Shown here in pieces: positions 3,001 to 6,000 of a DNA stretch of 64,000 nucleotides; the stretch's first letter is position 1, and every line of letters begins with the position of its first letter. The stretch covers positions 12,648,001 through 12,712,000 of the forward strand of contig NC_087247.1 of the NCBI RefSeq assembly GCF_037042905.1, read 5' to 3'. The position numbers were made by a program. This stretch comes from Lytechinus pictus. Its lineage: Eukaryota.

Positions 3001-6000
3001 ATATGTAAATTTATTCTATACTCAATTTTATACTCATCCGAATGAATACAACTGTGTTTTCCGACAACATATGATACGTAATTATAGTCAACATGTTTTA
3101 TATTTGCAGTACTAATACAGAACAAACTGCTTTCCTAGTCTAGACGGTCGAATAGAGACTAGCGCGTCTAAAATCAGTATACTGGAGTCCGTTTATGTTG
3201 TTCGACAACGTATCGCTACCAAGTGCCTCACAGACATCGCGTGCCCCAGCAAGGCCATTCTTCCGCCAAGTTAAGTTGACGCTGACGGCTCGGCTACGGG
3301 ACAGAGACAGGCCACACCCTGCTGAAGATCTTGAAGAGAGCTGTTGGTTGGGTTGGTCAAGCATCACACTGGCGTGTTGGAAGCGACCTGACGAGAGAAG
3401 GCAAAGAAGAAGAGTGACATGAATTATTTCACAAACACCAAAATCCCACTTTTTCATTGGTGGTCATGATTTGTATTTCTTATCTTACTACACACCTTCC
3501 TACAAGAAAAGACTAATCCATTGCATATCATGAACAGAGTCAGGTTTCTTTGTTTCGGCGTCTGTCTGATTTCTGTTATCTTTTTATCCGACACCTTCCC
3601 TACTTCCTAAAAGAAAAGACAAAACCATTGCACATCATGAACAGAGTCAGGTTTCTTTGTTTCGGCGTCTTTCTGATTTCTGTTATCTTTTCATCCGTCT
3701 TTGACTTCTTGGTAGGCCTTTTTTCGGGTCTGTCCAGTTGTTGGCAAAAAAGACGTAATTGGCCTGACACTTTCCTAAATCTTTGATACCATGTATCGAG
3801 TCTCGGTTGGTTTATACTTACCTAGCTCTATTGCGAAATATGAAGGGTAATACCCTATGTACAATCAGTGGTGTGAATAAAATGTTTTAGAATAAGGCCC
3901 TATTTTCATACATAATATAAATAAAATCTATTCCTCTTTCTTTCGAACCAACCTATGATACCATCGACAGAAGATGTTAGGCCGGTATTATCAAGAACGT
4001 TGAATGTAAAGGCATCGGGCCGATGTCTGTCCGTGTTGGAATCCAGTCGTTTGCTCATTATCTCAAACCTAGCACCGTTCGCCAGCGACACTACCACGTG
4101 AAGTCCATTGACCTCCAGCGAGTGAGCTCCAAAGGTATACGCAGAGGTGATTCCCCAACGCAAAGGACGACTGGAGTCGACGGCTATACCACCAGAGTTG
4201 AACTTGAGGCGATGTCTGGATGGCTGGGGCGAGTTGAGGACAATGGCGATTTCGCCGATGTAAGTGCGATCTCTGTCTCCGAATCGACCAGAGACAGTGT
4301 CCCCGACGATTCGCCCATTCACAAAGATACCTGAAACAACAGATGAATGTATATCACAAAAATAGCAAAGTTCATTCAGATTTAGAATAGAATAATGGAC
4401 AATTGTACTCCATATGTCACTGCTAGATTCAAATTCAAAACCTTGATACACCTGATAATGTTTTCCCTTTTCCCCTCACAGTTTCTTTTTAAATCTAAAT
4501 CACTATCTTACCCGAGGACAGGGGGTCGGGTGGGACGGTCGAGGCAGAGTGCCCGGCCCCTCTGACATAATTTTACTAAACTTTTGTCGATGCTTGTCAG
4601 AAATTTGTTGCCCATCCAGACGAGTTTTTCCAGGTACGGCACTGATCCAGTAAAAGGAAAGAAGAAAAAACCTATCCAGACCTTTGTGACCTTGATGAAC
4701 ATGTACATGCGAGCAGCATGACATATAAACACTATTTCTTAAACAATATTTGATGCATTTATTATATTTATTTTAATGATATTTTCACGTCTTTACCTTG
4801 CAATGGATCTTCTAATAGAGCAATGACGTCATTGTCTTGAGGATCCTCGTCTAAGCACACGGTGATCTCAACCTTTGGTACAGCTATGGTGAATCCTAAA
4901 TCAACAAAAAAAAAACGAAAATAAAATCATAAAGACCAATGCAATAGCCGTCACAATTGGTTTCTCTACATTGTCAATTATATTGTAGAATATTTATAAT
5001 TACCTTTTCCTTGATATAGAGTTTCCAAACCGTTCAATCTTTTGGGATCCTATTGTGAGCATGGTTTGTTTAAAACAATCATATATTTGTTTTAAAAAAT
5101 GTAAAAAAGGAAAAAAAAACTACTATATTCTATAAAATGATTGGAAGAGTATGACTGGATGCAAATTACAGTTTGGAGGCCGAATGGTAAGGGCAAATCA
5201 ACTCACGTCTACATTAATATCTCATAACTCTTGCAACGTGAGAACGAACATGTAAACTAACGTCATTTAGAAGAGATGAATAAAATAAATAAAGGTAATT
5301 CTAGATCAGCAAAGACTGATGTTTATCCAATACTGTAGCTCATTCATGCATCCTGGCATTGATCGTAATGGAGAGACATAGGGTAAGAGTAGGAAGTGAG
5401 GGTTGGGCGATAACTTCTCCTCCACTAAGAACCCCTTTGTCCTCCCCAGTTTCCTCAGTTTGAATTACGATTGACAATTTTCTTGTCCCCCCTTGCACCC
5501 CAACATTTTCCACTTGCCCCCTAAATTACTCCTTTCTTCTAAAATCCTTGAGCCGCCCAAAAAGGAGACGTTGTATTACCTGCAGAAAGAGGTTCTGGTG
5601 CAGGGATAGGAGCAGGTGGGATGACGGTGTAGTTCCTGGAGAGTGTCTTTCGAGCGGTACGGGGCAATGGTGAGGTGATGACTCTCATGCCAAATGGATT
5701 CACCCGACGTGATCCCTGGTCATCTCGACTGATCAACAACGCAGTAGAAGGGTTGAAGAATCTGATTGAGTTGATAGATTACTTTTAAATAAATAATACA
5801 CGACTTGGGATCATGCATCCACAAGTGGAAAGCAAAAATGGTGATTTGATATACATGAAATGACCTCGTTACTCGCATGACTTCTTCAATTAAACGTAAG
5901 AATCAACTCTGTTGACAGTCAAGAACTGCAACCCACTGTGTGATGGATTTGCATAACAGTAGCTCAGTCTCAATTTATAATTAACTTGATAAAAATCACA

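What the first reader, a model, noticed from the sequence alone, without database searches (positions are those of the whole stretch)
4797..5761. The Asp-Pro (DPHFII) cleavage/esterification motif is missing from an otherwise retained ITIH C-terminal domain
Seen: where vertebrate heavy chains read DPHFII.hP...hCF, this gene reads PEPLSAG|FTIAVPKVEITVCL; downstream motifs are preserved. Known: cleavage at that Asp-Pro bond creates the C-terminal Asp that is esterified to chondroitin sulfate and transferred to hyaluronan by TSG-6. Inference: the protein is probably not processed or GAG-linked in the vertebrate way and keeps its C-terminal domain. This fits concatenation replacing covalent assembly.
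Basis: partly seen in the sequence, partly recalled or inferred. Interest (0 to 1): 0.68.

Follow-up and report, generated by a model that had tools for sequence, protein, structure and literature searches.

The report
Sea-urchin ITIH gene lacks self-cleavage loop
A sea-urchin relative of the vertebrate inter-alpha-inhibitor heavy chains keeps the whole C-terminal domain but lacks the five-residue Asp-Pro loop that vertebrates use to cut that domain off and attach the chain to a sugar polymer, a state already known from vertebrate ITIH4.

Summary
On the minus strand, exon A (5761..5580) joins exon B (4895..4797) across a GT..AG intron. The junction reads ...PEPLSA-G-FTIAVPKVEITVCL, with no Asp-Pro. 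Of 112 named fish ITIH entries, 87 carry one V-D-G-D-P-H-F motif. A profile of 56 of them places exon B gap-free directly after that motif (E 1.5e-5), followed by exon C. The Phe lies 31 residues before Pfam ITI_HC_C position 2 in both fish and urchin. Fish isoforms point to exon boundaries matching the urchin's, except that the fish exon is five codons (D-G-D-P-H) longer at its 5' end. The one intronic candidate exon, carrying NPHFLLLP, has very poor splice signals. The protein therefore most likely cannot make the Asp anhydride and keeps its C-terminal domain. That interpretation is sound, but the state is not unusual: ITIH4 is described the same way, and the S. purpuratus orthologue is labelled "H4-like". 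"Concatenation replacing covalent assembly" remains speculation, and "missing" presumes a loss that was not shown. No RNA or protein data were available. Interest is low to moderate.

The parts
5580..5761 (-). Exon A, 182 nt (1 nt + 60 codons + 1 nt). It begins with the conserved hinge (FFNPSTALLIS, opposite fish/ITIH4 ...FVTPxTSxVV). The rest is a Pro- and Arg-rich linker ending ...PAPEPLSA.
   Evidence: translation; 10 Pro and 8 Arg/Lys of 60. Paralogous units read YNLLTPLMSMVLS and YNLVTPLTPLAL at the same place. The hinge appears in the fish profile and in ITIH4. Acceptor 5761 scores 3.8 leave-one-out against -4.7 for the alternative 5728. The donor scores 8.5.
4896..5579 (-). Intron A/B, 684 nt, GT..AG, phase 1. 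The split codon G|GA gives Gly.
   Evidence: There is no second copy in the window.
5317..5424 (-). Intronic stretch that would read VEEKLSPNPHFLLLPYV... It is the only frame-preserving, stop-free candidate exon that contains PHF, and it is not supported as an exon.
   Evidence: Of 17 candidate exons, 1 contains PHF. Its acceptor scores -14.3 and its donor -5.3, against minima of -0.3 and 2.7 for the 19 real sites. Shuffle tests: [DNE]PHF[ILVMF][ILVMF] in 9 of 20000, PHF[ILVM] in 316 of 20000. With a 33-position motif HMM its ORF ranks 93rd of 2122 hits in 3360 ORFs.
4797..4895 (-). Exon B, 99 nt (GA + 32 codons + G): FTIAVPKVEITVCLDEDPQDNDVIALLEDPLQ. It is the homologue of the fish stretch that follows D-P-H.
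   Evidence: E 1.5e-5, gap-free, profile 94-128.. The acceptor scores 8.9.
4331..4796 (-). Intron B/C, phase 1 (split Gly codon).
3953..4330 (-). Exon C, 378 nt: the core of the ITI_HC_C domain (IFVNGRIVG...VDGII).
   Evidence: Pfam PF06668, 5.6e-12, 46.1 bits, profile 2-134 of 189. Fish profile 126-259. Fragments P0002, P0004 and P0006 are 28-40% identical and diverge right after G-I/V-I/V-G.
3388..3952 (-). Intron C/D, phase 1. It holds a 107-bp repeat of 1.9 copies at 3496-3697.
3140..3387 (-). Exon D (245 nt, 81 codons) plus the stop TAG at 3142..3140. This is the likely last exon of the C-terminal domain.
   Evidence: The acceptor scores 11.4 and the phase fits. RFQHA is collinear with fish QFQH[A/S] in 4 of 5 pairwise alignments, but the scores are reached by 13-84 of 500 shuffles. 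Pfam finds nothing.
6167..11075 (-). Body of ITIH-like unit 3: VIT, VWA and post-VWA exons up to the ERIWAY exon (6336..6167) that precedes exon A.
   Evidence: Pfam VIT and VWA hits. ITIH4 (9c4f_I, 9.3e-12) and ITIH1 hit ORF 6794-7144. Exon boundaries come from paralogue alignment.
11665..26132 (-). ITIH-like units 1 and 2 (VIT + VWA each, no ITI_HC_C of their own), with a Pro/Thr-rich repeat linker at about 17100-17600.
   Evidence: The orthologous S. purpuratus model P0009 spans both units. In-frame junctions: 17075|16843, and possibly 11665|11027.

Best explanation
The window comes from a sea urchin close to Strongylocentrotus purpuratus. Its minus strand carries an ITIH-like gene whose last unit is followed by a 60-residue Pro/Arg-rich linker and a complete ITI_HC_C domain. 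In vertebrate heavy chains of the bikunin-coupled type, that domain opens with a V-D-G-D-P-H-F hairpin. Published work describes the Asp-Pro bond there as breaking autocatalytically in the late secretory pathway. The new C-terminal Asp leaves as an anhydride that esterifies chondroitin sulfate. In the urchin gene the exon that begins this region is 15 nt shorter at its 5' end. The split codon is followed directly by Phe, so the five residues D-G-D-P-H have no counterpart, while the next 32 residues align without a gap. Without the Asp-Pro bond there can be no self-cleavage and no anhydride. The chain therefore most likely stays in one piece with its C-terminal domain and is not ester-linked to a glycosaminoglycan by this chemistry. 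This is the state described for vertebrate ITIH4. Shown here: the sequence, the splice structure, the homology of position and the retained domain. Inferred: the lack of cleavage and of GAG linkage.
For: The junction reading and canonical GT..AG come. The donor at 5580 (8.5) and the acceptor at 4895 (8.9) score near the top of the 19 sites inferred in this gene. Among 112 named fish ITIH entries, 87 carry one DPHF, and D-G-D-P-H-F is invariant in 87 of 87. The 25 without it are 346-927-residue partial entries. The fish profile places exon B gap-free after the motif (E 1.5e-5), then exon C (E 1.8e-4). The Phe-to-Pfam offset is 31 in fish and in urchin. The tail is 241 residues, against 233-257 in fish. 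In 7 fish species, isoforms are identical from DGDPHF onward and differ upstream of the residue three before the Asp. That residue is V, I, M, L or F, all codons with T in second place, which indicates a phase-1 exon boundary there. The urchin boundary is also phase 1. A second shared boundary lies after GLLG in fish and GIIG in urchin, and a third probably at the Gly before IIV in fish and IFV in urchin. Passages read: ITIH3/5/6 have GDPH between the first two strands of a VWD-like sandwich (PMC10880436). The Asp anhydride links ITH3 to chondroitin sulfate, and a GAPH mutant of FCGBP is not cleaved (PMC8267560). ITIH4 lacks the consensus and is not coupled (PMC7793589; PMC2268946). P0009, the S. 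purpuratus orthologue of units 1-2 (73-96% identity per exon), is labelled 'heavy chain H4-like'.
Against: No transcript or protein data were available, so the junction rests on splice signals and homology alone. The comparators with a C-terminal domain are all fish (labelled H6, H5, H3). No invertebrate ITIH with this domain could be retrieved, so loss cannot be told from ancestral absence. The strand that precedes the hairpin in fish (VRVFSSS) has no detectable counterpart at the end of exon A. Exon D is not significantly similar to fish tails. The intron holds NPHFLLLP in a frame that could in principle be spliced in, and it is rare under shuffling (9 of 20000 for the widest post-hoc pattern). 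The fold evidence for the urchin domain is weak: pLDDT 61, best Foldseek E 0.066. The fish exon boundaries are inferred from predicted isoforms, not from fish genomic DNA. The exons were not joined, so the complete domain was neither searched nor folded.
Confidence: 0.75

Rival explanations
1. A missed or alternative exon in intron 5579..4896 supplies the cleavage motif, so at least one isoform is processed in the vertebrate way.
For: The intron contains ...SPNPHFLLLPYV... at 5424..5317, in a frame that preserves phase 1 to phase 1 without a stop. [DNE]PHF[ILVMF][ILVMF] appears in only 9 of 20000 dinucleotide shuffles of the intron, and PHF[ILVM] in 316 of 20000.
Against: It reads Asn-Pro, not Asp-Pro. 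Its acceptor (-14.3) and donor (-5.3) lie far below all 19 real sites, whose leave-one-out minima are -0.3 and 2.7. Beyond PHF plus two hydrophobic residues it does not match the fish profile: it is not reported at E<=10, and it ranks 93rd of 2122 hits. Exon B already supplies the residues that follow the motif, so this stretch would duplicate them. None of the 17 candidate exons yields D-P-H.
Confidence: 0.05
2. The C-terminal domain is still removed, but by a secretory-pathway or extracellular protease cutting the Pro/Arg-rich linker. That would be processing without esterification, or a bait region as described for ITIH4.
For: Exon A holds GSRRV and PRTAR|K, the latter fitting a minimal R-x-x-R pattern (my reading, not a tool result). 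It has 10 Pro and 8 Arg/Lys in 60 residues. The flexible C-terminal part of human HC1 has a thrombin site, LGPRRTF. ITIH4 has a proline-rich, protease-susceptible region and acts as a bait inhibitor.
Against: Nothing was tested here. Basic pairs are common in disordered linkers. No homology of this linker to ITIH4's region was found: the exon A ORF gave 0 PDB matches at E<=10.
Confidence: 0.25
3. Exons A-D are not part of a functional transcript with unit 3. They could be a decayed 3' end or a separate gene, which would make the absent motif meaningless.
For: Exon D has no significant similarity to fish tails. The exon C donor is weak (2.6). The S. purpuratus model P0009 stops within unit 2 and has no ITI_HC_C.
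Against: All four exons are open, the phases fit and the splice sites are canonical. The hinge motif is split between the preceding exon and exon A exactly where it is contiguous in units 1 and 2. ITI_HC_C scores well above the Pfam cut-off. The tail length matches fish and human pro-domains.
Confidence: 0.05

Closest known systems
Vertebrate ITIH4 (human chain 9c4f_I in the PDB)
   Same: It has a VIT-VWA heavy-chain body (ORF 6794-7144 hits it at 9.3e-12). It has the same hinge ...YSFVTPLTSMVVTKPD. It is described as lacking the C-terminal consensus needed for bikunin coupling, as keeping a C-terminal region behind a proline-rich stretch, and as not being incorporated into proteoglycan complexes (passage read).
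   Different: No orthology is shown. Neither the urchin C-terminal profile nor the fish profile aligned ITIH4's C-terminal domain. ITIH4 is a single unit, whereas this gene has three VIT-VWA units. A bait-inhibitor function is untested here.
Fish ITIH6/ITIH5/ITIH3-labelled proteins (for example P0017, P0068, P0100)
   Same: They are the closest full-length relatives retrieved: 52-57% identity over the VWA exon. The C-terminal region is collinear and gap-free from the Phe onward. The Pfam offset is the same, and they share exon boundaries.
   Different: They carry V-D-G-D-P-H-F, invariant in 87 of 87, and the urchin does not. Their linkers are several hundred residues long and Thr-rich, against 60 residues here.
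[quoted passage not shown]
   Same: It is the orthologue of units 1 and 2 of this gene at 73-96% identity per exon. This includes the Pro/Thr-rich linker and the unit 1 to unit 2 junction.
   Different: It is a partial model of 1110 residues without unit 3 or ITI_HC_C, so it says nothing about the junction in question.
VWD domains with and without GDPH (FCGBP, MUC2, RGM)
   Same: Published work places the ITIH C-terminal domain in a VWD-like beta-sandwich with the Asp-Pro hairpin between strands 1 and 2. Human FCGBP has the motif in 11 of its 13 VWD domains, so members without it exist. The model of urchin exon C best matches MUC2 D assemblies (probability 0.96 and 0.93).
   Different: No Foldseek match reached E<=0.001 (best 0.066), and the model has pLDDT 61. 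Pfam files this domain as ITI_HC_C, not VWD.

Membership tests
ITIH family (inter-alpha-inhibitor heavy chains, broad sense) | VIT domain (PF08487) at the start of the unit | tested here: met
   VIT matched 3 of the 150 ORFs scanned, one per unit. For unit 3 it is ORF 10866-11075, E 2.2e-5, 25.0 bits. That is an exon fragment, just under the whole-protein cut-off of 26.5.
ITIH family (inter-alpha-inhibitor heavy chains, broad sense) | VWA domain with a D-x-S-x-S metal site | tested here: met
   VWA matched 6 of 150 ORFs, two per unit. Unit 3 reads ...FVIDISGSMSG....
ITIH family (inter-alpha-inhibitor heavy chains, broad sense) | ITI_HC_C domain (PF06668) at the C-terminus | tested here: met
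   It matched 1 of 150 ORFs: 46.1 bits against a cut-off of 27, profile 2-134 of 189. None of 107 further ORFs matched at E<=1. Profile positions 135-189 were not detected.
ITIH family (inter-alpha-inhibitor heavy chains, broad sense) | Hinge motif ...Y-x-F-V-T-P-x-T-S... between body and linker | tested here: met
   The window reads QY-R-FFNPSTALLIS across the 6167|5761 junction. The fish profile and ITIH4 read ...YnFVTPvTSlVV and YSFVTPLTSMVV. The comparison was made by eye and not scored.
Bikunin-coupled heavy chains (ITIH1/2/3/5/6 type) | G-D-P-H hairpin with the Asp-Pro bond, 34 residues before Pfam ITI_HC_C position 2 | tested here: not met
   The window reads L-S-A-G-F where fish read D-G-D-P-H-F. 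There is no DPHF in the gene.
Bikunin-coupled heavy chains (ITIH1/2/3/5/6 type) | Release of the C-terminal domain and an ester bond from the new C-terminal Asp to chondroitin sulfate | not testable with these tools
   This needs protein chemistry. Only published passages were read.
Bikunin-coupled heavy chains (ITIH1/2/3/5/6 type) | Partner genes in the same genome (bikunin/AMBP, TSG-6, hyaluronan synthase) | not tested
   Only this 64-kb window was available. A review passage places the first hyaluronan in amphioxus and notes a chondroitin proteoglycan in the sea-urchin embryo (PMC3581078).
ITIH4-type (uncoupled) heavy chains | No coupling consensus, with the C-terminal region retained behind a Pro-rich stretch | tested here: met
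   There is no Asp-Pro. The linker has 10 Pro in 60 residues, and the tail is 241 residues and in frame.
ITIH4-type (uncoupled) heavy chains | Orthology to vertebrate ITIH4 | tested here: inconclusive
   ITIH4 is the best PDB hit for one body exon, but its C-terminal domain aligned to neither profile. The 'H4-like' label on P0009 is an automatic name. No tree was built.
VWD-like beta-sandwich domains | Fold similarity of the C-terminal domain to VWD | tested here: inconclusive
   The exon C model has pLDDT 61 and is all-beta. Four of the five best Foldseek matches are MUC2 D assemblies (probability 0.85-0.96, TM 0.42), but 0 of 500 matches reach E<=0.001. The fish full-length model was unusable (pLDDT 33).

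The most novel reading that the evidence does not exclude
The self-cleaving hairpin sits exactly at the 5' edge of an exon whose phase-1 boundary is shared by fish and sea urchin, and the two exons differ by precisely the five codons D-G-D-P-H. The covalent-transfer chemistry of heavy chains may therefore have been switched on in the vertebrate line, or off in the urchin line, by a 15-nt slide of one splice acceptor in an otherwise unchanged VWD-like domain. If so, the urchin gene shows what the domain does when it is never cut off. One predicted pike isoform (P0111...GKT-N-PHFVV) looks like such a slide within a living species.
Probability: 0.25. Interest if true: 0.55.

Novelty: new member of a known kind. 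Interest (0 to 1): 0.3.

Why it matters
The result separates two properties of the ITIH C-terminal domain that coincide in most vertebrate chains: the fold and its self-cleaving hairpin. An echinoderm chain that keeps the fold without the hairpin suggests the domain has a role of its own beyond acting as a leaving group for ester formation. It also gives a natural comparator for ITIH4. The exon-edge position of the hairpin offers a simple, checkable route for gain or loss of the chemistry. The absence itself would not surprise a specialist. Uncoupled heavy chains are known, and hyaluronan is reported only from amphioxus onward (review passage).

Tried and rejected
- **Protein searches with the ITI_HC_C exon.** The first word-index search found nothing. 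The HMMER scan of representatives gave 8 hits. I judged 3 to be true but fragmentary (P0002, P0004, P0006) and 5 to be repeat-protein noise. A profile of those fragments found only P0004 again. Named relatives came only with a profile of the three VWA exons.
- **PDB searches.** The exon A ORF gave 0 matches at E<=10. The ERIWAY exon gave only designed armadillo repeats at E 0.4-0.8. The ITI_HC_C profile gave only chance-level matches (E 0.05-0.1) to a herpesvirus glycoprotein, which I did not follow.
- **ESM Atlas.** The best score was 0.84, to bacterial clusters, which is not informative.
- **Paper searches for the motif string.** 'DPHFII' gave 0 papers. 'DPHF' with 'inter-alpha' gave 1 irrelevant paper. 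'PHFII' gave 14 papers, of which 10 were listed and none was relevant.
- **Short motif HMM (33 positions).** It has no power: exon B scores 1.8 bits and the intronic NPHF ORF 1.0 bit.
- **Exon D against fish tails.** Not significant.
- **AlphaFold model of fish P0017 with 12 sequences.** Mean pLDDT was 33, so it was unusable for placing the hairpin.
- **Micro-exon hypothesis.** Rejected on splice scores. A 6-nt candidate (5009..5004) has good sites, but it would only add two residues and supplies no Asp-Pro.
- **DPHFF at 55868-55879 (-).** Rejected as chance, because no ITIH-like domain lies near it.
- **First pass at exon boundaries.** It used approximate splice-site frequencies that I recalled from memory. 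The scores reported come from a matrix built on the gene's own 19 donors and 19 acceptors.
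Full report
**What the window is.** The window has 225 N at 57681-57905, which I left alone. It is not human. [quoted passage not shown] That model maps to the window exon by exon at 73-96% identity. The window is therefore from a sea urchin close to that species, but not identical to it.

**Domains found.** I listed 220 minus-strand stop-to-stop ORFs of 52 residues or more. Of these, 150 went to Pfam and 67; the 3 lying over the N run were left out. One search also took 74 plus-strand ORFs of 70 residues or more. 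The minus strand carries three VIT + VWA units: VIT in 3 ORFs and VWA in 6 ORFs of the 150. It carries a single ITI_HC_C match, in ORF 3909-4475 (46.1 bits, cut-off 27, profile 2-134 of 189). A further 107 smaller ORFs in the three tails gave no other ITI_HC_C match at E<=1. The rest of the window gave no ITIH-type domain.

**The observation.** Exon A is 5761..5580 and exon B is 4895..4797, separated by a 684-nt GT..AG intron. Exon C (4330..3953) starts with GT and holds the Pfam match. Exon D (3387..3143, stop TAG) follows in phase behind the best acceptor of the gene. No DPHF occurs in any minus-strand frame of the gene. The single DPHF of the window, at 55868-55879 (-), lies in an ORF with no domain match.

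**Handling of the spliced model.** Only the three-base split codons were read across junctions.

**Is this the homologous place?** Early searches gave no comparator. A profile of the three paralogous VWA exons then returned 670 proteins, of which 120 were listed. After setting aside P0009 and 7 unnamed entries, 112 named fish ITIH entries remained.
- 87 of the 112 carry exactly one DPHF. The 25 without it are partial entries of 346-927 residues.
- The context is V-D-G-D-P-H-F-V-V-Q-L-P-K-L-H-Q-N-L-C-F, with D-G-D-P-H-F invariant in 87 of 87.
- I built a profile of the C-terminal segments of the 56 full-length entries and ran it with all filters off against the 178 minus-strand ORFs of 1..6500. 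The exon B ORF ranked first (E 1.5e-5). It aligns without a gap to profile positions 94-128, with the profile's His opposite the junction Gly and Phe opposite Phe. The exon C ORF ranked second (E 1.8e-4, positions 126-259).
- Independently, the Phe lies 31 residues before Pfam ITI_HC_C position 2 in fish P0017 and P0068, and 31 residues before it in the window.
- Upstream, exon A opens with the family's hinge motif. The fish profile and human ITIH4 read ...FVTPxTSxVV there. Units 1 and 2 read YNLLTPLMSMVLS and YNLVTPLTPLAL.
- The tail from the junction Gly to the stop is 241 residues. Fish have 233-257 residues after the Asp (median 248, n = 56). The human HC1 and HC2 pro-domains are 239 and 244 residues (passage in PMC7170535).

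**The exon edge.** In 7 fish species with two or more predicted isoforms, the isoforms are identical from DGDPHF onward. They differ upstream of the residue three before the Asp, which is V, I, M, L or F. All these codons have T in second place. That is the pattern expected if a phase-1 boundary splits that codon.
- The urchin boundary is also phase 1, but it splits the codon directly before Phe.
- A fish boundary after GLLG (P0012 against P0017, same species) matches the urchin boundary after GIIG.
- A noisier census also points to a fish boundary at the Gly before IIV, matching the urchin B/C boundary.
- The homologous exon therefore appears to be 114 nt in fish and 99 nt in the urchin. The difference is exactly D-G-D-P-H.
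- This rests on predicted isoforms, not on fish genomic DNA.

The intron does hold something that looks relevant...SPNPHFLLLPYV... in ORF 5309-5464.
- In 20000 dinucleotide-preserving shuffles of the intron, PHF[ILVM] appeared in 316 and the wider post-hoc pattern [DNE]PHF[ILVMF][ILVMF] in 9.
- I built splice-site matrices from 19 donors and 19 acceptors of this gene. Their positions are fixed by open frames, phase and agreement among the three paralogous units.
- The intron has 34 GT and 37 AG, which give 17 frame-preserving, stop-free candidate exons. Only one, 5424..5317, contains PHF. Its acceptor scores -14.3 and its donor -5.3. The leave-one-out minima of the real sites are -0.3 and 2.7.
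- It would read Asn-Pro, not Asp-Pro, and it would sit in front of an exon that already supplies the residues following the motif.
- A 33-position motif profile ranks its ORF 93rd of 2122 hits among 3360 ORFs of the window.
- The intron has no second copy in the window.
- I take the stretch for chance, or at most a decayed remnant. Only transcript data can close the point.

**Mechanism.** These are passages I read, not whole papers.
- ITIH3, ITIH5 and ITIH6 have GDPH between the first two strands of a predicted sandwich with VWD topology (PMC10880436).
- The Asp-Pro hairpin is pH-sensitive. The ITIH domain is released because it lacks the tethering cysteine, which lets the terminal Asp bind glycans (PMC11670116).
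- GDPH cleavage yields an Asp anhydride. In ITH3 this ends as an ester on GalNAc of bikunin's chondroitin sulfate. A GDPH-to-GAPH mutant of FCGBP is not cleaved (PMC8267560).
- ITIH4 lacks the consensus, is not coupled to bikunin, and has a proline-rich, protease-susceptible region (PMC7793589; PMC2268946).

From this I infer that the urchin chain, which has no Asp-Pro, cannot self-cleave or form the ester at this site, and that it keeps its C-terminal domain. Removal of the domain by another protease is not excluded, because the linker holds RR and RTAR|K.

**Fold evidence.** My own fold test is weak. The exon C model has pLDDT 61 and is all-beta. Four of its five best Foldseek matches are MUC2 D assemblies (probability up to 0.96), but none of 500 matches reaches E<=0.001. 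A model of fish P0017 was unusable, with pLDDT 33.

- Paralogy among the three units ends after the post-VWA exon.
- Units 1 and 2 end with the hinge motif and then run on. Unit 1 continues through a Pro/Thr-rich repeat (63-bp units at 17105-17592) into the next VIT exon.
- The junction 17075|16843 is in frame and agrees with P0009.
- The junction 11665|11027 is in frame but has a weak donor.
- One polypeptide with three heavy-chain bodies and one C-terminal domain is thus plausible. That this arrangement 'replaces' covalent assembly is an idea I could not test.

**Novelty and limits.**
- I found nothing in print on this gene or on invertebrate ITIH hairpins. The searches were those (10 papers held the terms, 7 were listed, none on this point; 1 paper, irrelevant). 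The library is limited to open papers, and supplements were closed.
- The state itself, a heavy chain without the coupling consensus, is textbook for ITIH4, and the urchin orthologue already carries an 'H4-like' label. I therefore file the finding as a new member of a known kind.
- A review passage places the first hyaluronan in amphioxus and notes a chondroitin proteoglycan in the sea-urchin embryo (PMC3581078). The absence of the hyaluronan-transfer chemistry in an urchin is therefore expected.
- The one point I think worth following is the exon-edge position of the hairpin.
- Whether the urchin state is ancestral or a loss stays open, because no invertebrate comparator with the domain could be retrieved.

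Noticed in passing
window 17105-17592 (-), within ORF 17018-18067: Coding 63-bp tandem repeats give a Pro/Thr-rich, mucin-like linker (PRTWPPRT..., TTTEAPRTRPPP...) between ITIH-like units 1 and 2. The same linker is present in the S. purpuratus model P0009.
   Followed up: partly
window 11665-26132 (-): Three VIT-VWA units lie in tandem with in-frame junctions and only one ITI_HC_C. The unit 2 to unit 3 junction (11665|11027) has a weak donor, and a stronger donor at 11676 would need another, unidentified exon.
   Followed up: partly
window 36920-40324 and 35795-36664: A tandem array of 435-bp units (7.8 copies, 98% matches) sits next to 256-bp units (3.5 copies). Each 435-bp unit carries open minus-strand ORFs of 75-84 residues with no Pfam match.
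   Followed up: no
window 33757-34188 (+) and 44071-44406 (+): Two plus-strand ORFs have Kazal-type inhibitor domains (Kazal_2 at 2.9e-8 and 1e-3). They probably belong to another gene on the opposite strand.
   Followed up: no
window 58169-58240 (+): A tRNA gene (Rfam RF00005, 60.9 bits) lies just beyond the N run at 57681-57905.
   Followed up: no
window 6405-6555 (-), 16019-16150 (+), 25416-25497 (+): A short repeated element is present in inverted orientation in introns of all three units (60-70% identity at protein level in tblastn).
   Followed up: no
window 26659-26946 (-): An ORF upstream of unit 1 ends ...DLIDRVKRQAADVVRLNYQLNE. The RVKRQ resembles the start of the fish profile printed (rvkrq...), so this may be the N-terminal propeptide exon of the gene.
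   Followed up: no
window 26365-26538: A TAC trinucleotide repeat of 57.7 copies gives a poly-Ser ORF on the minus strand, just upstream of unit 1.
   Followed up: no
P0111 (Esox lucius, UniRef entry), residues around 560-570: This predicted fish isoform reads ...GKT-N-PHFVVQLPK instead of ...V-D-G-D-PHFVV. That is what an acceptor 9 nt downstream in the same phase would give, and such an isoform would lack the cleavable Asp.
   Followed up: partly
window 4896-4926 (-): Read through in frame, the last bases of intron A/B give ...F-V-D-L-(G)-F, which recalls fish V-D-G-D-P-H-F. The tract is T-rich and holds no upstream AG, so this is probably coincidence.
   Followed up: no
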